From Candidatus Doudnabacteria bacterium RIFCSPHIGHO2_01_FULL_46_24 (GTDB lineage Bacteria; Patescibacteriota; Doudnabacteria; UBA920; O2-02-FULL-48-8), in the NCBI GenBank assembly GCA_001777575.1, contig MFEL01000010.1, positions 84,661 through 148,660 of the forward strand: a DNA stretch of 64,000 bases. The letters are read 5' to 3'. The translations under genes and the position numbers were made by a program. Below the pieces are notes generated by a model. The model was not told the origin of the DNA. It made no database searches and was given only the letters and a program-made list of their open reading frames with translations. The first letter of the stretch is position 1. Every line of letters starts with the position of its first letter. Of this stretch, positions 1,163 to 33,978 are shown piece by piece.

Positions 1163-1729
1163 CTATTTGACCTTTTCGATCAATTCGCGTACCAAGTCTT
1201 TTGGCAAACCGGCGATGCTGTCAATTGTGCCTTCAATCTTTTTTACATATGGCTGAAAAATCTCCGTTTCGGCCGCAAAACTCCCCGCGTGCTCAAGCGC
1301 TTCTGGGGTATCGACAAAGTTCTTAAATAAATTCTCATCAAACGGCTTAAACCAGACAGTTGCGATGTCAACGCCGGAAACTCTTCTGCCCGTAGCCGTA
1401 TTGGTTATCACCACGGCGCAGACCGTCTTTGCCGGCCTATCTCCAAAATCTTGAAGCACTTCCCTGGCCTCCTGCTTCGTTGCCGGCTTCTCCAGAACTT
1501 TGCCCTCAAACACCACAATCAAATCAGCGGTAACAAGCAGCGTATCATGGTCAAGTTTTGGAATCAAGGCGTCAGCTTTGGCATTGGCTATATCAAGGAC
1601 CATTTGATTTGGGTTTTCGTGCCTGATCGCCTTCTCGTCAATATCTGCCGTCATCACCTCAAACTTATACCCCATCTCCAGCAAAATCTGCCGCCTCCTT
1701 TTTGATGCTGATCCCAAGACTATTTTCAT
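1163..1729 (-). CDS. maf: Maf-like nucleoside triphosphate pyrophosphatase
   Basis: MKIVLGSASKRRRQIL N-terminus and overall Maf/YhdE family similarity. Confidence 0.8.
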   Translation of the reverse strand: MKIVLGSASKRRRQILLEMGYKFEVMTADIDEKAIRHENPNQMVLDIANAKADALIPKLDHDTLLVTADLIVVFEGKVLEKPATKQEAREVLQDFGDRPAKTVCAVVITNTATGRRVSGVDIATVWFKPFDENLFKNFVDTPEALEHAGSFAAETEIFQPYVKKIEGTIDSIAGLPKDLVRELIEKVK

Positions 1730-6898: not shown

Positions 6899-7690
6899 GA
6901 ACCAGGGGTACTTGACGTAGAGCGCGGTGCCTGTCGCGCCATTTCGGTCCTCCTTTGGGCCATTTAGGCGTTAGGGTTGTCTCGCTGCGGCCATCTGGGC
7001 GACAGCGGCTTTGGATAAGCTAATTATTATAGGCTGAAAATGATTCAAGAGTCAAAAAATAAGAAAAACATTCTACCTTTCTGCTCGTACGAGCAAAACA
7101 GTAGAATGTCATTACACTAAAAAATATCACCCAAGCCGAAACAGACGCAAAAACCTCAAGGGTTATTCCGTCTGTATTCGGTCAAGAGTTAGTCCACTGC
7201 CTCCGGCGGCAACATGCGCCTCAATACCGGCGGTACGCAGACGCAATTTGCGTCATGTGATAATTTACATATTTACGTTTACTATCACGTTACTAATCGT
7301 GGTAGTAAATGCACTATAAATATTTTTCGTATGTTCACGCTGTCGAAAAAAGAGATGAGGACGCCTCGTCGTGTTCAGATAGTGTAGGTCTGTTTCGGCT
7401 CCTGACGGTCCATGTAAATCCACCGGGAGCTTGCCCGTCGGTAGGTGAATCGGCTGTTGTCGAAGCCGTCGGCGATGCGAACCGCTCCATGAACTGGTCG
7501 TCACTGAGTTGTGCTCGATAGCATCGGCGCGGCGCCGGAGTGCCCTGGTCAATTCCAGCCTGGTTGGCGACGCATAATGTCTAAAAAATCTCATCCCGTC
7601 CCCGCGAGCTTGCTCGATTTTTTATATCCTTTTTCAACAACTTCGAACATGCCTCACGATATTATAAGTGAAAAGGGCTAACCTTAGCCA

Positions 7691-7730
7691 AAATAAACAC
7701 CTCAACCACGGTTGAGGTGTTTAGTGAATG
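7691..7730 (-). terminator. Rho-independent terminator of metK (AACACCTCAACC-gtgg-GTTGAGGTGTT then TTATTTTGG)
   Basis: Perfect 11-bp stem followed by a U-rich tract on the minus strand just after the metK stop. The same module recurs at 55243-55283. Confidence 0.7.
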
Positions 7731-7737
7731 GCCGCAT

Positions 7738-8709
7738 TCACTCGTCCCACTTAAAACCGTTGCCAAAATGGCCGTAGCGGGCTGTCTGTTCGTACTGAGG
7801 TTTGCGCAAGTCGAGAAAATCTATGATCCCCTTGGGCGTTAAGTCATAACCCTCAATGGGCATCTCTTTGCCGTCCACAATCACTGTGGCCTGCAAGGGC
7901 TCAGCCTTGCCGATGGCATAGGCCAAATACGCATAAACTTCCTTGGCATCGTGCTTGCGAAGGCAGTCCACGGCAATTTTCCTGGCCATGTAAGCGGCGC
8001 TCCTGTCGACCTTAGTCGGGTCTTTGCCGCTGAAGCATCCTCCGCCCACCGGGATTCTGGGTCCATAGTTGTCAATGATAATCTTGCGTCCGGTCAGTCC
8101 AGTGTCAGCATCAAAGCCGCCAATCTGCCAGTCCCCAGTCGGATTGCAATATATCCCGGTTTTCTCAAGACTTAACTGCCGGTTATTAGCCCATGCCTTC
8201 ACGTCAGCTGTCAGGATTTCTTTGCTGACGTTTTGAAAACTGGCTACAATTGCCGAAATCTGCCCGCTTTGGCTGTCCAAAGTAATCTGAGTTTTGCCGT
8301 CATTTGCACTGCCGTGTTTTTCGAAAATGCTCCTGTTTAATTCACGGGCCAGCATAACTTCCAGCGGCATCAGTTCCGGAGTTTCGCCGCAGGCGTAGCC
8401 GACCATAATACCCTGGTCTCCTGCACCGCCCGCGTCAACGCCGCGCGCGATCTGGGGCGATTGCTCGACGATGTTTACCTGCACTCCATATTTGTTCCCC
8501 AAAAGACGGTGGACAATTTCGCGGACATTGACGTAACCGGAAGTGGTGATCTCGCCCGTGACCGTGATGATGCCATGCCCGCCCATGGTTTCCACGGCCA
8601 CGCGCGAATGCGGGTCTTGCTCTAAGAGTTCATCCAAAACCGCGTCCGAGACTCGGTCGCAAATTTTGTCCGGGTGCAGGGGGGAAACTGATTCTGCGGT
8701 TCTGATCAT
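7738..8709 (-). CDS. metK: S-adenosylmethionine synthetase, compact 323-aa form
   Basis: ESVSPLHPDKICDRVSDAVLD and GGGCFSGKDPTKVDRSAAY motifs. Confidence 0.9.
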   Translation of the reverse strand: MIRTAESVSPLHPDKICDRVSDAVLDELLEQDPHSRVAVETMGGHGIITVTGEITTSGYVNVREIVHRLLGNKYGVQVNIVEQSPQIARGVDAGGAGDQGIMVGYACGETPELMPLEVMLARELNRSIFEKHGSANDGKTQITLDSQSGQISAIVASFQNVSKEILTADVKAWANNRQLSLEKTGIYCNPTGDWQIGGFDADTGLTGRKIIIDNYGPRIPVGGGCFSGKDPTKVDRSAAYMARKIAVDCLRKHDAKEVYAYLAYAIGKAEPLQATVIVDGKEMPIEGYDLTPKGIIDFLDLRKPQYEQTARYGHFGNGFKWDE

Positions 8710-21987: not shown

Positions 21988-22362
21988 CTTTAAGTAAGCG
22001 AGCAGTCGCCCAGCCCCAGTTTGCAAAAACTGGAGCTGGGAGGAAAGTCCGAACACGTTTGTTGGATTGAGTCTCATGAGTTAATTCAGCATCAGGTAGC
22101 GGGTAACGCCCGCCAAAGGGTAACCTTAGAGTTGCGAACAGAAACGACCCGGTTAAGTCCGGCTGAAACGCGCTAAATACTTACCTGACAGTGCAATGTC
22201 GAATAGGTCCTGTACCGGAGCGAAAGCGACTGGTACCAGGGCGGGTAGACAGCTTGAGCCTAACAGCAATGTTAGGCCTTAGATAGATGATTGCTTCCCC
22301 AGCTCCAGTTTGCAAAAACTGGAGCTGGGTCAGACAGAATTCGGCTTACAGCTTGCTTAAAG
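21988..22362 (+). ncRNA. rnpB: RNase P RNA (bacterial type)
   Basis: P4 5' strand GGGAGGAAAGTCCGAACAC and P4 3' strand ACAGAATTCGGCTTACAG. A 12-bp P1 stem forms between 21988-21999 (CTTTAAGTAAGC) and 22351-22362 (GCTTGCTTAAAG). GGGTAACGCC and ACAGAAACGACCCGG elements are present. Confidence 0.8.
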
Positions 22363-22367
22363 AGCAT

Positions 22368-31187: not shown

Positions 31188-32396
31188 TTACCTCAACAAC
31201 TCCAAGGCTTTGTCCATTTGGGGATCACGGTCAGCTTCGATGTCTTCTCTGGTCATCTCAACTTTGATGTCCGGCTCCAAGCCGTTTTTGTTAATATCCC
31301 GCCCTTTTGGCGTGCGCCATTTGCCGGTGGTGATTTTCAAATCCGAGCCGTCTTTCATAAGGTTAAGCTCCTGCACCGAGCCTTTGCCAAAAGTTTTATC
31401 GCCAACCAATGTTGCCTTCTTATGATCCTGCAGCGCCCCGGCCAAAATTTCCGCAGCCGAAGCCGAGCCGCCGTTTATTAAAACCACGGTTTTTAACTCT
31501 TTCAGCCTAGCCAACCCGCTTGATGGATAAGATTTCTCCTCGTCATTAAACCGAACTTCTTTGACCACAACTTTCCCTGAATCCACCCAATTCGAGGCGA
31601 TCTCGATGCTGGTCTCCAAGTATCCGCCCGGGTTATTTCTCAAATCCACAATCAGTCCGTCATAATTGCCGGCCATGACCACATCCACCACATGATCAAA
31701 CAAGCCTTTGGTATCGTCCCCAAAACGATTTAATTTGATAATGCCAATCTTTTTCCCGTCAATCTCGTTGGTTTCGAATTTCAAGCTTTTGATCTCGATG
31801 CGGGCGCGCTGAATAATTTTCTCTTCCGGCTGCCGCTCATCTTTATGCAAAATGCTCAACGTGACTTCGCTGCCGGCAGGGCCGCGGATTTTGGACACTG
31901 CCTGGTCAACTGTCAGTCCGTTGGTCGGCTCGCCATTTATGGCTAATATCCCATCTCCGGGCAGAAGGCCGGCTTTCGCCGCCGGAGTGCCTTCCAGAGG
32001 CGCTATGACCACGAGCTGGTCATTTTTGATGCCAATCTCCGCGCCGATGCCATTAAAACTCCCGGAAAGTTCTTCATCGAATTCTTTCGCTTCTTTCGGA
32101 TCAAGGAAAACCGTATAAGGATCACCAACGGCCCTGACCAATCCGGCAACTGCGCCATATAAAAGCTCCTGTTGGTCAAGCGGTCGGTCCACATATTTCC
32201 GGTTAAGCAAATCCAAAGTCTCCCAAAGCAGCGAGTAATCCCCGTTGGTGGGAACATTGCCGCGCTGGATGGTGATGTTGCTGCCCTCAAGCCTAATCTT
32301 TTGACTACCAACGCCATAGCCAATACCAAACACCAGCCCCAAAATAAGAACTGAGGCAATTAAATTGAGACTTTTTTTCTGGTCCATTATTGTCAC
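31188..32396 (-). CDS. ctpA: Carboxyl-terminal processing protease (peptidase S41, PDZ-containing)
   Basis: N-terminal TM, PDZ region, and catalytic GGSASAAEILAGALQD. Confidence 0.85.
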   Translation of the reverse strand: MTIMDQKKSLNLIASVLILGLVFGIGYGVGSQKIRLEGSNITIQRGNVPTNGDYSLLWETLDLLNRKYVDRPLDQQELLYGAVAGLVRAVGDPYTVFLDPKEAKEFDEELSGSFNGIGAEIGIKNDQLVVIAPLEGTPAAKAGLLPGDGILAINGEPTNGLTVDQAVSKIRGPAGSEVTLSILHKDERQPEEKIIQRARIEIKSLKFETNEIDGKKIGIIKLNRFGDDTKGLFDHVVDVVMAGNYDGLIVDLRNNPGGYLETSIEIASNWVDSGKVVVKEVRFNDEEKSYPSSGLARLKELKTVVLINGGSASAAEILAGALQDHKKATLVGDKTFGKGSVQELNLMKDGSDLKITTGKWRTPKGRDINKNGLEPDIKVEMTREDIEADRDPQMDKALELLR

Positions 32397-32443
32397 TTTA
32401 ACAAATTATATCTCGCAAGTAAAATGATAGTCCTTAATAGACG

Positions 32444-32472
32444 TTGACAAACATTTATGGCAGTTTTATACT
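32444..32472 (+). promoter_or_regulatory. Consensus sigma70-type promoter TTGACA-17nt-TATACT reading into a GC-rich non-coding island
   Basis: TTGACA at 32444-32449 and TATACT at 32467-32472 with a 17-nt spacer, followed by AAGGAGG at 32486-32492. Confidence 0.5.
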
Positions 32473-33126
32473 CGTTTTATCACACAAGGAGGTACCAATA
32501 GCCCGTCGTCACCACCGTTACCCTCTGCGGCGCTCGCGATCGCTCTATCGTTACTGGATCGCCCGCCGCGCGCTCGTGGCCGTTCTTCTCTGTCGCCGGA
32601 GGTGCAACGCTTAGTTCGGCAAGCCTAGCAAGCTTGCGTGGCCTGTAACAGATCCATCAAGATGAAGGAGGTCTGGCATGGCCCGCATCACGCTTGACGG
32701 TTTCGGCCCCGAGGTACGGCCGCCGTGATCTAACTTCCTCTTCAGGCTCCGTCCACGAGACCAATGGCCTGATGGTTGTGAACAGCCTGTAGCTGTTCCA
32801 ATTTCGGCAGTGGCACAGCGCTGCATCAGTCCGTTGCCTCAGACGCAACAACCACGGATTTCGTGAAAGGAGCAGCTATAGCCAGCTAACCCTCCTCAAC
32901 TGGCGAACACTGAACAGCGCGAGCCCGAGCCTCGACTCGGGCGACCAAATCGGCTGCCACTGGGCGGCCGAAGGCAACTGCCTTGGACAGACTTAAGAGC
33001 ACGAACTAAGTGCTGGACTGAAGTCCGGGACAGGAAGCCAAACGACGATGGGAAACCGGGGGTAGGAGCAACCGACGGCACAAGCTGCCATCAACCGCTC
33101 CTCCCCCCATCCCTCTCTCAACGTTC

Positions 33127-33978
33127 TCAATGGACGCTTTTTTTGTTTCTAAACAAATTCACGACAAGAACCAAGAACATTCGCAGATTTATACCAAGAT
33201 AAACCAGCTGGTTAAAAAGCCGGTTATATTTTTGTGCGTAATGCTTGCGGTAAAAAATTTTCATGGCATCATGCGCCAACTTGATGGTACGAAACGGAAC
33301 CAATTGTGCTGAACCGTATTTGTAATGCGTAATCACGACCTGGGGATAATACATTACCTTGTACCCGGCTTCCTTGACGCGCCAGCACCAGTCCAAATCC
33401 TCGCCATACATGAAAAAATCCTCGTCGAGTAATCCGATTTGGTCCATTACGGATTTTCTGATCATCAGATATGCACCCATGACTGAATCAACTTCGGTTT
33501 CCTGGTCAATAGGCCTCGTGATATTGTAATTACTGAATTTTCGCAGTCCAAACAAGCGCAAAAAAGCATTCCGGGGATTGGGAAATTTCCTGCGACAAGC
33601 TTCATCTAATTCCCCATTTGGCAGCAAAACTTTGCAGCCCATAGCCCCGGCTTCCGCATGCAAGTTCATGTATCTGATAGACAGATCAAAAGTATTGGAC
33701 TTAACTTCTGTGTCAGAGTTCAAAAGCAATGAATATCGTCCTTGGGCAAGGCGCAGGGCCGCGTTATTCCCTTTTGAAAATCCCAAATTCGCGTTATTTT
33801 CAATCAATTTCACTTCCGGAAATTCCGCCCCGATCATTTCCTGGCTGCCGTCTTGCGACTCATTGTCCGAAACTAAAACCTCAAACTGAAAATTCGTATG
33901 CGAAGCAAACACCGACTTCAGACATTTTCGCAGAAGATCTTTGGTATTGTAATTAAGAATAATAATTGTTAAATCCAT
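33127..33978 (-). CDS. Glycosyltransferase family 2
   Basis: MDLTIIILNYNTKDLLRKCLKSV...DNESQDGS (DxD region), from the internal start. The track ORF extends 12 codons upstream. Confidence 0.75.
   Translation of the reverse strand: MDLTIIILNYNTKDLLRKCLKSVFASHTNFQFEVLVSDNESQDGSQEMIGAEFPEVKLIENNANLGFSKGNNAALRLAQGRYSLLLNSDTEVKSNTFDLSIRYMNLHAEAGAMGCKVLLPNGELDEACRRKFPNPRNAFLRLFGLRKFSNYNITRPIDQETEVDSVMGAYLMIRKSVMDQIGLLDEDFFMYGEDLDWCWRVKEAGYKVMYYPQVVITHYKYGSAQLVPFRTIKLAHDAMKIFYRKHYAQKYNRLFNQLVYLGINLRMFLVLVVNLFRNKKSVH

What the first reader, a model, noticed from the sequence alone, without database searches (positions are those of the whole stretch)
32440..33126. GC-rich (about 60% by eye) non-coding island of about 650 bp downstream of a perfect sigma70 promoter; candidate structured RNA or degraded foreign insert
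TTGACA-17-TATACT (32444-32472) fires into a stretch much more GC-rich than the roughly 45% background. It has no ORF of at least 60 aa on the plus strand. It carries two strong RBS-like sequences: AAGGAGG at 32486, and GAAGGAGG followed by ATG for a 16-codon peptide MARITLDGFGPEVRPP at 32678-32728. Dense local stems include GGACTGAAGTCC and GCAAGCTTGC. No tmRNA, SRP, 6S, rRNA or tRNA signatures were recognised by eye. It lies between ctpA and a GT2 gene. Possibilities are a novel ncRNA or ribozyme, a leader-peptide-controlled element, or a decayed horizontally acquired gene.
Basis: seen in the sequence. Interest (0 to 1): 0.65.

Follow-up and report, generated by a model that had tools for sequence, protein, structure and literature searches.

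The report
Stand-alone RNA gene with stalling-type mini-ORF
The GC-rich gap is most likely a lineage-specific RNA gene of Candidatus Doudnabacteria with its own promoter and terminator, and its best-conserved part is a tiny ribosome-loaded reading frame ending in prolines; no such RNA is catalogued, and its function is unknown.

Summary
A near-perfect promoter at 32444-32472 is followed by about 666 nt with no long reading frame. This stretch is 58.9% GC against 48.5% for the window and ends in a terminator hairpin plus seven T (33122-33144).

It is not a decayed foreign gene. The same gap between the GT2 gene and ctpA holds an equivalent unit in seven other Doudnabacteria lineages and is nearly empty in three.

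The RNAs vary from 337 to 666 nt and differ greatly in sequence, but all share these features:
- a consensus promoter;
- an AAGGAGG (ribosome-binding, Shine-Dalgarno or SD type) near the 5' end with no ATG/GTG/TTG after it;
- one mini-ORF with its own SD and start codon, ending (R/A/S)(A/P)P(P/Q/L)-stop.
- a G-rich/C-rich helix near the 3' end, a pyrimidine tract and a terminator.

GGAGG occurs four times more often than expected, and GC is held at 53-60% whatever the genome's GC. Six of the eight RNAs fold much better than shuffled copies. There is no match in Rfam, Pfam, phage or plasmid collections.

Best reading: a stable RNA that engages ribosomes and is built around a RAPP-like stalling peptide. 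Transcription, translation and function are all inferred, not shown.

The parts
32444..32472 (+). Sigma-70-type promoter TTGACA-17-TATACT. The predicted transcription start is near 32479.
   Evidence: 11 of 12 matches. It is one of three near-consensus promoters in the window. An equivalent TTGACA-17/18-TAnnnT promoter sits at the same relative place in all seven homologues.
32486..32492 (+). AAGGAGG near the 5' end with no ATG/GTG/TTG within 12 nt downstream. Candidate ribosome or 30S docking site acting as a 5' stabiliser of the STAB-SD type.
   Evidence: Present in all eight RNAs. In the short (A-type) RNAs it is unpaired or lies in a hairpin loop in the predicted folds. The stabiliser role is inferred.
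32498..32614 (+). Open, arginine-rich frame directly after the 5' SD (IARRHHRYPLRRSRSLYRYWIARRALVAVLLCRRRCNA*). Its only possible start is the near-cognate codon ATA. It may be a small basic peptide; this is uncertain.
   Evidence: Similar R-rich frames occur in L180, L182 and L097, with ATC or ACG at the equivalent place. L097 and L182 differ by in-frame indels of 6 and 3 nt. The frame is not kept in A-type L188, and BLASTP finds no similarity between distant members.
32665..32672 (+). Shine-Dalgarno sequence GAAGGAGG of the mini-ORF.
32678..32728 (+). Mini-ORF MARITLDGFGPEVRPP-TGA. This is the conserved core of the element and a candidate RAPP-like ribosome-stalling peptide.
   Evidence: Every homologue has one SD-plus-start ORF of 7-24 codons ending P-(P/Q/L)-stop. 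The pattern appears in 0-6 of 500 shuffles per sequence and never on the reverse strand. RPPPQ-stop is kept with synonymous codon changes in L097, L182 and L180. MSRSAP(L/Q) is kept with Arg codons CGA, AGG and CGG in L094, L188 and L189.
32729..33057 (+). Variable, GC-rich structured body with many local hairpins, including GGACTGAAGTCC at 33015-33026.
   Evidence: This part diverges fastest between relatives: it is barely alignable between L097 and L182, and full of indels.
33058..33108 (+). Long 3' hairpin closed by a G-rich strand (GGGGGTAGGAGC) pairing with a C-rich strand (GCTCCTCCCCCC, 33097-33108).
   Evidence: (spurious miRNA-precursor hits reflect this hairpin). An equivalent G-rich/C-rich helix, with a different sequence, occurs in every homologue.
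33109..33119 (+). Single-stranded pyrimidine tract ATCCCTCTCTC just before the terminator.
   Evidence: A comparable C/U tract precedes the terminator in L097, L182, L180 and L178. It is one of the few stretches that blastn aligns between the window and L097.
33122..33144 (+). Intrinsic terminator: hairpin CGTTC-TCAAT-GGACG followed by T7. It overlaps the stop codon of the convergent GT2 gene.
   Evidence: All homologues end in a hairpin plus a T-run of at least six, and the stem sequences differ while pairing is kept.

Best explanation
Positions 32479-33144 (+) most likely form a separate, strongly expressed RNA gene restricted to a subclade of Candidatus Doudnabacteria (candidate phyla radiation, CPR). 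It is not a relic and not a leader of a neighbouring gene.

Proposed working:
1. A consensus promoter drives a transcript whose first bases carry a perfect Shine-Dalgarno sequence with no start codon. This would dock 30S subunits or ribosomes at the 5' end.
2. About 190 nt into the transcript, a second SD and an AUG load ribosomes onto a 16-codon frame ending Arg-Pro-Pro-stop. Relatives end theirs in RPPPQ, QAPP or SAP(L/Q).
3. This ending belongs with the RAPP-like sequences that stall bacterial ribosomes at the peptidyl-transferase centre. The ribosome is therefore expected to pause at the end of the mini-ORF.
4. A parked ribosome would have two effects. It would shield the RNA from decay that starts at the 5' end. 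It would also hold open the helices that overlap or follow the mini-ORF, so that translation status sets the fold of the GC-rich 3' body. That body comprises the G-rich/C-rich helix, the pyrimidine tract and the terminator.
5. The 3' body is presumed to be the effector, for example by pairing with SD regions or binding a protein.

What is shown from sequence comparison: the locus, its boundary signals, the conserved mini-ORF, the excess of SD motifs, the constrained base composition, and folding energies below shuffles.

What is inferred: transcription, translation, stalling, the stabiliser role and the effector role.
For: Organism and conserved gene order:
- ctpA of the window is encoded identically on Rifle aquifer contigs, including GCA_001779995.1.
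- Its nearest relatives, at most 70% identical, are named Candidatus Doudnabacteria by their sources.
- The order GT2, small ORF, GT2, gap, ctpA, alaS, GPI is kept in all relatives examined.
- The gap holds an equivalent unit in L097, L182, L180, L178, L094-096, L187/188 and L189. It is only 32-176 nt in L091, L183/184 and L185/186.

Shared anatomy in all eight RNAs: promoter, 5' AAGGAGG, mini-ORF, G/C-rich 3' helix, and terminator with differing but pairing stems.

Mini-ORF:
- It is the first, and usually the only, ORF with an SD and a canonical start in each RNA.
- The pattern occurs in 0-6 of 500 dinucleotide shuffles per RNA and never on the opposite strand.
- RPPPQ-stop is written CGC CCG CCG CCG CAG TAA/TGA in L097 and L182, and CGT CCT CCG CCG CAA TAG in L180.
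- In MSRSAP(L/Q)-stop the arginine codon is CGA, AGG or CGG while the rest of the block is nearly invariant.

Stalling motifs in the literature:
- QAPP, RAPP, RPPP, RAPQ and RAP-stop are among the RAPP-like C-terminal motifs used to define or search for arrest peptides. Stalling occurs with the third motif residue in the P site (PMC10987492).
- RAPP-like motifs are depleted from proteomes and enriched at the C-termini of small regulatory ORFs (PMC12992588).

Ribosome-binding motifs: GGAGG occurs 20 times against 5.0 expected (z = 7.3). Its complement CCTCC is not enriched (11 against 8.2).

Structure:
- RNA GC is 53-60% while the genomic background ranges from 41 to 57%.
- The minimum-free-energy z-score is -3.5 to -4.2 in six of eight RNAs.
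- In the A-type consensus fold, 88.5% of cells are paired, against 38-49% when partners are slid. Ten pairs show compensatory changes, against 0-5 in slid controls and reached by 1 of 500 shuffles.
- Between strains, a U-to-C change turns a G-U pair into G-C in a long-range helix (L180 vs L181), and a 1-nt insertion falls in a hairpin loop (L094 vs L095).
Against: - There are no expression data of any kind.
- Only eight lineages were recovered (about five independent), all found by gene order. Direct sequence similarity between the window and the others is limited to the 3' end (45 nt at 78%, E = 5e-4) and a 14-mer.
- nhmmer does not link the long (B-type) members. The A-type covariance model does not detect B-type RNAs. 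No common structural core has been demonstrated.
- L097 and L182 fold hardly better than shuffles (z = -1.5 and -1.1).
- The mini-ORF pattern was defined after seeing the sequences, so the shuffle test overstates significance.
- The proline codons could be a by-product of C-rich RNA motifs such as CCUCC or CCGCCG.
- The peptides are 7-24 aa. That is shorter than known RAPP-type arrest peptides, whose upstream residues also matter, and most RAPP-like sequences tested did not stall (PMC10987492).
- No downstream ORF or target has been identified.
- The covariation evidence rests on three sequences and on a structure predicted from that same alignment.
Confidence: 0.5

Rival explanations
1. A purely non-coding structured RNA, either a regulatory RNA or a protein-binding scaffold. 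Under this reading the SD-like and C-rich motifs serve RNA-RNA or RNA-protein contacts, and the mini-ORF is an untranslated by-product of those motifs.
For: - Folding energies lie well below shuffles in six of eight RNAs.
- GC is held constant against varying genome GC.
- The A-type fold shows compensatory changes.
- Several PP-stop endings coincide with CCUCC next to a GGAGG that can pair with it, for example GGAGGCCUCCAUGA in L182 and GGGAGGCCCCUCCAUGA in L097.
Against: - SD, spacing, AUG or GUG, an open frame and an in-frame stop right after the proline codons co-occur in all lineages.
- Synonymous codon replacement occurs, including AGG vs CGA or CGG for Arg and three different stop codons.
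- GGAGG is enriched but its complement is not, so the motif is not there merely to build helices.
- No consistent intramolecular partner for the end of the mini-ORF was seen in the predicted folds.
Confidence: 0.2
2. An mRNA for one or two very small proteins, with a long structured 3' UTR. The products would be an arginine-rich peptide of 30-40 aa started at a near-cognate codon (ATA, ATC or ACG) after the 5' SD, plus the mini-ORF peptide. The peptides themselves would be the functional products.
For: - In B-type RNAs the frame 5 nt after the 5' GGAGG is open for 26-40 codons. It has a similar RR..Y.RR - hydrophobic - RRR make-up in the window, L180, L182 and L097.
- L097 and L182 differ there by in-frame indels (6 and 3 nt) and by several third-position changes.
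- In L097 this frame ends in an ATGA overlap with the mini-ORF start.
Against: - No canonical start codon is present in any member.
- The frame is not kept in A-type RNAs: L188 has a stop after four codons.
- BLASTP finds no similarity between distant members beyond the mini-ORF end.
- Arginine richness is expected from any CG-rich sequence read in that frame.
- The peptides have no Pfam or NCBIfam match.
- Only the last 3-5 residues of the mini-ORF are conserved, which fits a cis-acting nascent peptide better than a folded product.
Confidence: 0.12
3. A cis-acting control element for its neighbours. One version is a leader-peptide attenuator whose read-through past the terminator makes antisense RNA against the convergent GT2 operon. 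Another is a strong convergent or divergent promoter that modulates GT2 or ctpA transcription by interference.
For: - Position and orientation are invariant: divergent from ctpA and convergent with GT2, with the terminator overlapping the GT2 stop codon.
- On the minus strand the terminator hairpin is not followed by a T-run, so GT2 transcripts may run antisense through the element.
- A-type RNAs contain three mutually complementary segments (GGGACC, GGUCCC, GGGACC) after the mini-ORF. These can form alternative helices, as in attenuators.
Against: - Relatives lacking the element keep the same gene order, so the neighbours do not need it.
- ctpA appears to have its own short promoter, conserved with or without the element.
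- The alternative helices lie 200 nt upstream of the terminator and do not involve it.
- 340-670 nt of GC-constrained sequence is far more than an attenuator needs.
Confidence: 0.1
4. A decaying remnant of a foreign or duplicated protein gene (pseudogene), or a mobile-element scar with no present function.
For: - GC is above the local background.
- The element is present or absent among relatives at the same site.
- The body diverges rapidly and is rich in indels.
- Several assemblies break inside it.
Against: - No frame in any homologue has protein similarity.
- There is no match to phages or plasmids, no repeat elsewhere in the window, and no inverted or direct terminal repeats were noticed.
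- Promoter, SD sites, mini-ORF and terminator are kept intact at ctpA distances of 30-35% amino-acid divergence. Neutral decay would not preserve them.
Confidence: 0.04

Closest known systems
RAPP-like (RQH family) ribosome arrest peptides: ApdA, ApdP, ApcA, SecM, YwcI, CruR (PMC7897499, PMC10987492, PMC10951233, PMC12992588)
   Same: A short ORF with its own SD whose only conserved part is a C-terminal (R/Q/H)-(A/G/P)-P-(P/G/Q/stop) type motif placed at or next to the stop codon. Exact QAPP and RAPP endings occur in L178, RPPP in L097, L182 and L180, and RPP-stop in the window. The N-terminal sequences are unrelated between lineages, as reported for that class.
   Different: - Known members are upstream ORFs of a regulated gene (secA, secDF, yidC, sacT, bfrG). 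Here no ORF follows before the terminator.
- Known members are usually longer, and many carry an export signal. These are 7-24 aa.
- A-type endings (SAPL, SAPQ) lack the Arg/Gln/His at motif position 1.
- Stalling has not been tested.
Dual-function regulatory RNAs such as Staphylococcus aureus RNAIII/hld, SR1/SR1P and SgrS/SgrT (reviews PMC12612679, PMC12310071; details from general knowledge)
   Same: An independent transcription unit of several hundred nt with its own promoter and terminator. It is highly structured, carries one small SD-preceded ORF inside it, and has C-rich, anti-SD-like sequence in the 3' part, as in RNAIII and the Rsa RNAs.
   Different: - No sequence or structural homology.
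- No target has been identified.
- The conserved part of the ORF here is a stalling-type C-terminus rather than a functional peptide.
- The RNA body evolves much faster than in those families.
STAB-SD and ribosome-stall 5' stabilisers of Gram-positive mRNAs (Bacillus thuringiensis cryIIIA STAB-SD; ermC leader stall; from general knowledge)
   Same: A perfect SD close to the 5' end that is not followed by a start codon, and a short leader ORF on which a ribosome can pause. Both are known to protect downstream RNA from 5'-end-dependent decay.
   Different: Those elements stabilise protein-coding mRNAs, whereas here the protected part has no long ORF. The presence and role of RNase J-type decay in this organism were not examined.
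Large GC-rich structured ncRNAs found as long GC-rich intergenic regions (OLE, ROOL, GOLLD, HEARO/omega RNA, raiA)
   Same: A long, GC-rich, ORF-poor intergenic region in a genome of lower GC, with strong predicted structure and promoter and terminator signals.
   Different: - No Rfam model matches, even at E <= 10.
- Those families have conserved cores with extensive covariation across phyla. This one has no core detectable by nhmmer or a covariance model beyond close relatives, and it carries a conserved mini-ORF.
tmRNA (ssrA)
   Same: A stable RNA of 350-600 nt that contains a short reading frame and engages ribosomes.
   Different: - ARAGORN and Rfam find no tmRNA here.
- There is no tRNA-like domain and no CCA-type 3' end.
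- The frame here has an SD and an AUG, whereas a tmRNA tag frame has neither.
- The peptide ends in Pro rather than in the Ala/Leu-rich degradation tag.
Leader-peptide transcription attenuators (trpL, hisL; proline-codon leaders mgtP and mgtL; from general knowledge)
   Same: A short SD-preceded ORF with a run of codons for one amino acid (Pro), followed in A-type RNAs by segments that can form alternative helices, and a terminator downstream.
   Different: No structural gene lies downstream on the same strand. The alternative helices do not include the terminator, and the distance from the mini-ORF to the terminator is 230-420 nt.

Membership tests
Any Rfam 15 family (4227 models, including OLE, ROOL, GOLLD, HEARO, raiA, 6S, SRP, tmRNA, group I/II introns and riboswitches) | Score at or above the family's gathering threshold with its covariance model | tested here: not met
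   the only hit in the window at gathering threshold is RNase P at 21990-22364. (E <= 10 over 32300-33250): only miRNA-precursor models at 16-25 bits against thresholds of 60-97, caused by the 3' hairpin; no hit inside the element in any of seven homologous loci.
tmRNA | tRNA-like domain formed by the 5' and 3' ends, and a tag reading frame without SD or start codon | tested here: not met
   ARAGORN finds no tRNA or tmRNA in the window or in L189, and there is no Rfam tmRNA hit. The mini-ORF has an SD and an AUG.
RAPP-like / RQH arrest peptides | C-terminal (R/Q/H)-(A/G/D)-(P/G/S)-(P/G) motif, or a listed variant (RPPP, RAPQ, RAP-stop), near the end of a small ORF | tested here: inconclusive
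   Exact QAPP-stop and RAPP-stop occur in L178, RPPPQ-stop in L097, L182 and L180, and VRPP-stop in the window. A-type RNAs have SAPL or SAPQ, without the R/Q/H. The motif list comes from PMC10987492.
RAPP-like / RQH arrest peptides | Encoded as an upstream ORF of the gene it regulates, on the same transcript | tested here: not met
   There is no further SD-plus-start ORF with a stop before the terminator in the window. The next gene is convergent.
RAPP-like / RQH arrest peptides | Demonstrated elongation or termination arrest (toeprint, or accumulation of peptidyl-tRNA) | not testable with these tools
   This needs in vitro translation. Most RAPP-like sequences taken from ordinary proteins did not stall (PMC10987492).
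Dual-function small RNA (RNAIII type) | Own promoter and terminator, not part of a neighbouring mRNA | tested here: met
   Consensus promoter and intrinsic terminator in the window and in all homologues. These are sequence signals only; no transcript data are available.
Dual-function small RNA (RNAIII type) | A conserved small ORF inside the RNA | tested here: met
.
Dual-function small RNA (RNAIII type) | Base-pairing regulation of target mRNAs | not tested
   No target search was attempted. A C-rich, anti-SD-like tract would match most SD sites and so would not discriminate.
Leader-peptide transcription attenuator | Leader ORF, then alternative antiterminator and terminator helices, then structural genes on the same strand | tested here: not met
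   No downstream same-strand gene before the convergent GT2 gene. The alternative helices in A-type RNAs do not involve the terminator.
STAB-SD type 5' stabiliser | SD complementary to the 16S 3' end near the 5' end of the transcript, not used for initiation | tested here: met
   AAGGAGG lies 7-60 nt from the predicted 5' end in all eight RNAs, with no ATG, GTG or TTG within 12 nt. The effect on stability cannot be tested here.
Type I toxin-antitoxin mRNA (hok type) | Hydrophobic toxin ORF of 20-60 aa and an antisense RNA gene | tested here: not met
   None of the conserved frames encodes a membrane-type hydrophobic peptide. No antisense promoter was found inside the element.
Protein-coding gene or pseudogene | A frame, or frameshifted frames, with similarity to known proteins or conserved between relatives | tested here: not met
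   No Pfam or NCBIfam match for the frames. Six-frame comparison between distant members finds only the end of the mini-ORF.

The most novel reading that the evidence does not exclude
These RNAs may be a previously undescribed class: stand-alone RNA genes that engage ribosomes in candidate phyla radiation (CPR) bacteria. Under this reading, a stable, fast-evolving structured RNA is built around an SD decoy with no start codon and a RAPP-like stalling mini-ORF that regulates no downstream gene. The paused ribosome itself would be the signal or the protecting cap. The RNA would then report or buffer translation capacity (EF-P, Pro-tRNA or release-factor status), or switch its 3' effector domain. 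That would be the first use of an arrest peptide outside upstream-ORF control of a gene.
Probability: 0.25. Interest if true: 0.75.

Novelty: new variant of a known kind. Interest (0 to 1): 0.55.

Why it matters
Arrest peptides are known only as upstream ORFs that tune a downstream gene. CPR bacteria, with very small genomes and no cultures, have almost no described regulatory RNAs.

A conserved, probably abundant RNA whose core is a stalling-type mini-ORF with nothing downstream would extend what nascent-peptide stalling is used for. It would also give a concrete, testable RNA for Doudnabacteria: the mini-ORFs are short enough for immediate in vitro toeprinting.

The case also shows that long GC-rich intergenic regions can hide translated micro-frames, and that a family can keep its modules while its sequence and fold turn over. 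Homology-based RNA catalogues miss such families.

If expression data show no transcript, the locus is merely a curiosity of one clade.

Tried and rejected
- **Rfam.** Scanned at gathering threshold and at E <= 10 on the region and on seven homologous loci. Nothing relevant.
- **ARAGORN.** No tRNA or tmRNA.
- **Repeats within the window.** blastn of the region against the window found no second copy.
- **Genome-collection scan with ctpA.** The patterns picked up only distant S41 peptidases (at most 60% identity), none with the element.
- **Metagenome scan with a ctpA alignment.** The patterns chosen were universal S41 motifs.
- **nhmmer.** Run with each RNA against all 177 loci. Only self and near-identical copies were found.
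- **Covariance model of the A-type core (R1).** Finds the three A-type RNAs at 144-157 bits but no B-type RNA and no second copy in the window. A shared structural core is therefore rejected for now.
- **Phages and plasmids.** blastn in distant mode found no match. One viral-contig pattern scan with the A-type core found no match.
- **Pfam and NCBIfam.** No hits on the candidate peptides at E <= 10.
- **Six-frame BLASTP between homologues.** Uninformative for close pairs, where all frames match. For distant pairs only the mini-ORF end matches.
- **CsrA-type GGA sponge.** Considered and dropped: counted by eye, GGA in the window's RNA was close to the number expected from base composition. The enriched motif is the full SD.
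- **Literature.** Searches for CPR or Patescibacteria structured RNAs returned nothing relevant.
Full report
**1. The observation.**

- The promoter TTGACA-17-TATACT lies at 32444-32472 and matches 11 of 12 consensus positions. It is one of only three near-consensus promoters in the 64-kb window.
- AAGGAGG lies at 32486-32492.
- GAAGGAGG at 32665-32672 is followed by ATG at 32678 and TGA at 32726-32728, giving MARITLDGFGPEVRPP.
- The two quoted stems are present, and no plus-strand ORF reaches 60 aa.

The flanking genes are a peptidase S41/PDZ protease (ctpA, minus strand, 31188-32387) and a family-2 glycosyltransferase (minus strand, 33127-33978).

Two corrections are needed. First, the window averages 48.5% GC, not 45%. 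The region is 58.9% GC, about 2 SD above the mean of 300-nt windows, and some coding stretches are GC-richer.

The plus strand folds 4-5 SD better than dinucleotide shuffles. Nearly all genes in the window are on the minus strand. This unit and the RNase P RNA gene run against them.

**2. It matches nothing catalogued.**

Rfam 15 gives nothing at gathering thresholds, and only spurious miRNA-hairpin hits at E <= 10. ARAGORN finds no tmRNA or tRNA. No second copy exists in the window. There is no match in phage or plasmid collections.

**3. Organism and relatives.**

The ctpA protein is encoded identically on contigs from the Rifle aquifer, including GCA_001779995.1. The element is 100% identical in all of them. 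The next closest ctpA proteins are at most 70% identical, and their sources name them Candidatus Doudnabacteria.

The gene order GT2, small ORF, GT2, gap, ctpA, alaS, GPI is conserved, but the size of the gap varies.

| Locus | Gap between GT2 and ctpA | Element present |
|---|---|---|
| L091 | 32 nt | no |
| L183/184 | 89 nt | no |
| L185/186 | 176 nt | no |
| L094-096 | 490 nt | yes |
| L188 (and L187) | 505 nt | yes |
| L189 | 576 nt | yes |
| L178/179 | 668 nt | yes |
| L182 | 671 nt | yes |
| window | 739 nt | yes |
| L180 | 760 nt | yes |
| L097 | 799 nt | yes |

More distant Patescibacteria fetched through the genome and metagenome scans show nothing comparable.

**4. Shared anatomy.**

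Read on the strand opposite to ctpA, every long gap contains the following, in order:
- a TTGACA-17/18-TAnnnT promoter;
- an AAGGAGG-type Shine-Dalgarno (SD) sequence 7-60 nt from the predicted 5' end, with no ATG, GTG or TTG after it;
- a second SD followed by ATG or GTG and a short frame;
- a GC-rich body;
- a long helix made of a G-rich and a C-rich strand;
- a pyrimidine tract;
- a hairpin followed by six or more T.

There are two size classes. The A-type is about 340 nt (L094, L188, L189). The B-type is 538-666 nt (window, L097, L182, L180, L178).

Sequence similarity is low. nhmmer does not connect the B-type members. blastn links the window to L097 only at the 3' end and through a 14-mer. 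L097 and L182, whose ctpA proteins are both close to P0005 (82% and 85% identity), align well only from the promoter to the end of the mini-ORF. Their 3' bodies are riddled with indels.

RNA GC stays at 53-60% while the surrounding genomes range from 41% to 57%.

**5. The mini-ORF is the conserved core.**

| RNA | Mini-ORF peptide and stop codon |
|---|---|
| window | MARITLDGFGPEVRPP-TGA |
| L097 | MMTNRGRQRTTTPDTNQDRPPPQ-TAA |
| L182 | MRYRRCKFSDTDQDRPPPQ-TGA |
| L180 | MARRVRHRTTNVQEPEATGRPPPQ-TAG |
| L178 | VHLHRLSLALVSARALQAPP-TGA |
| L094, L188 | MSRSAPL-TAG |
| L189 | MSRSAPQ-TAG |

In each RNA this is the first, and usually the only, ORF that has both an SD and a canonical start. The pattern tested was an SD, a 3-10 nt spacer, ATG or GTG, 6-30 codons, and an ending of P-[PQL]-stop. 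It occurs in 0-6 of 500 dinucleotide shuffles per RNA and never on the reverse strand. The pattern was defined after inspecting the sequences, but it recurs in about five independent lineages.

Codon usage points to selection on the reading frame. RPPPQ-stop is written CGC CCG CCG CCG CAG TAA/TGA in L097 and L182, and CGT CCT CCG CCG CAA TAG in L180. In the A-type block ATG AGC xxx AGC GCG CCG CWG TAG, the arginine codon is CGA, AGG or CGG while its neighbours are invariant.

Only the last few residues are conserved, which is the signature of a nascent peptide acting inside the ribosome. The endings fall in or beside the RAPP-like class. QAPP, RAPP, RPPP, RAPQ and RAP-stop are among the motifs used to define or search for arrest peptides, with stalling when the third motif residue occupies the P site (PMC10987492). 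Such motifs are depleted from proteomes and enriched at the C-termini of small regulatory ORFs (PMC12992588).

It is established knowledge, not tested here, that C-terminal prolines slow termination and that consecutive prolines need EF-P.

**6. Ribosome-binding motifs.**

GGAGG occurs 20 times in the eight RNAs against 5.0 expected (z = 7.3). The broader SD set occurs 46 times against 12.8 expected. The complement CCTCC is not enriched.

The 5'-proximal SD without a start codon resembles the STAB-SD stabilisers of Gram-positive mRNAs; this is a resemblance from general knowledge. In A-type folds this SD is unpaired or displayed in a hairpin loop.

**7. Structure.**

Six of eight RNAs fold 3.5-4.2 SD better than shuffles on the RNA strand. 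L097 and L182 do not.

For the three A-type RNAs the consensus fold has two domains and a terminator. In it, 88.5% of cells are paired, against 38-49% when partners are slid. Ten pairs carry compensatory changes, against 0-5 in slid controls, and only 1 of 500 shuffles reaches ten. Three sequences are few, and the structure was predicted from the same alignment, so this is supportive only.

Strain-level differences agree with the folds. A U-to-C change turns a G-U pair into G-C in a long-range helix (L180 vs L181), and a 1-nt insertion lies in a hairpin loop (L094 vs L095).

A-type RNAs have three segments (GGGACC, GGUCCC, GGGACC) just after the mini-ORF that can pair in two exclusive ways. 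The individual minimum-energy folds choose differently.

A covariance model of the A-type core finds only A-type RNAs. The two classes therefore share modules, not a demonstrable common fold.

**8. The arginine-rich frame.**

In B-type RNAs the frame that begins 5 nt after the 5' GGAGG, at ATA, ATC or ACG, stays open for 26-40 codons. Its composition is similar in four lineages. L097 and L182 differ there by in-frame indels.

Against this, it lacks any canonical start, is not kept in A-type RNAs, and shows no detectable similarity between distant members. I treat it as an open question.

**9. Interpretation.**

The decayed-gene reading fails. Nothing protein-like is present, and the boundary signals and the mini-ORF are maintained at distances where neutral sequence would be scrambled.

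The classical leader reading fails for lack of a downstream gene. The next gene is convergent, and relatives without the element keep the same neighbours.

The best-supported reading is a stand-alone RNA that engages ribosomes. An SD decoy at the 5' end and a stalling-type mini-ORF would park ribosomes on the 5' part. This would protect the RNA and couple the fold of the fast-evolving 3' body to translation status. That body comprises the G/C helix, the pyrimidine tract and the terminator.

What the 3' body does is unknown. Its turnover in sequence and length suggests either a scaffold with loose constraints or a rapidly changing partner. All functional steps are inferred; no expression, translation or stalling data exist.

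**10. Comparison and novelty.**

- It works most like a RAPP-type arrest upstream ORF fused into a dual-function RNA of the RNAIII kind, with a STAB-SD-like 5' end.
- It fails the upstream-ORF criterion of the arrest-peptide family.
- It fails every Rfam model and the tmRNA criteria.

I found no description of it in Rfam or in the searched literature. I rate it a new variant of known kinds, confined so far to one subclade of Doudnabacteria, with moderate interest. The interest would rise if transcription and stalling are shown.

Noticed in passing
window 21990-22364 (+), repeats at 22016-22040 and 22305-22329: The RNase P RNA gene (Rfam RF00010, 119.6 bits) contains an exact 25-nt direct repeat, CCAGTTTGCAAAAACTGGAGCTGGG. 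The same hairpin-forming sequence therefore occurs near both the 5' and the 3' end of the RNA, with none expected by chance.
   Followed up: partly
L005, L008, L009, L010 (window-type element) and L181 (L180-type): Contigs from independent assemblies end inside the element at different positions (389, 555, 448, 42 and 384 nt into the RNA). This suggests strain-level variability or poor coverage of this GC-rich stretch.
   Followed up: partly
L007 1745-2317 (-), equivalent to window about 32424-32996 (+): The JGI record 3300002529 carries a called gene of 573 nt, with a recorded product of only 25 residues, on the RNA strand and overlapping the element. What that call represents is unexplained.
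   Followed up: no
L189, about 1545-1640 (minus strand of the locus), between the element's terminator and GT2: A stretch of about 60 nt looks tRNA-like (GGAGCTA ... GGTGTGTTCAAGTCCACC ... TAGCTCC) and is followed by its own hairpin and T-run. ARAGORN does not call it, and Rfam has no hit.
   Followed up: partly
window 6900-7740 (-): Another long gap lies downstream of the S-adenosylmethionine synthetase gene. It holds a near-consensus promoter (7055-7026) about 85 nt ahead of an SD and ATG at 6942, and a GC-rich stretch (7340-7600) that may encode a small protein. There is no Rfam hit, and its fold is no better than shuffles (z = -0.3).
   Followed up: partly
window 32394-32403 (+ strand CACTTTAACA), just upstream of the ctpA start at 32387: On the ctpA strand a conserved TAAAGT lies 7 nt before the ATG, with no SD. 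It is conserved also in relatives that lack the element. ctpA may be transcribed as a leaderless mRNA from its own promoter, back-to-back with the RNA's promoter.
   Followed up: no
window 32556-32569 and the mini-ORF ends of L097 and L182: An exact 14-mer, GGATCGCCCGCCGC, is shared between the window's arginine-rich frame region and the DRPPP-coding end of the mini-ORF in L097 and L182, in a different frame and position. It may be chance in C/G-rich sequence or a trace of module duplication.
   Followed up: no
L180 3922-4039, L182 3065-3182, L097 5051-5174 (antisense, inside ctpA): Sub-threshold Rfam hits to Rickettsia sRNA47 (31-41 bits against a threshold of 60) lie antisense within the ctpA coding sequence. 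They probably arise because that Rfam model overlaps a conserved S41 peptidase gene.
   Followed up: no
3' G-rich strand of L097, L182, L094 and L189 (RNA positions about 230-500): The G-rich strand of the 3' helix often carries an SD-like GGGGAGG or GGGAG followed by ATG or TTG. The resulting frame runs to the end of the terminated transcript without a stop codon, because the C/U-rich tail has no stops in any frame. If exposed, it would give non-stop translation. This is not conserved in all members.
   Followed up: no
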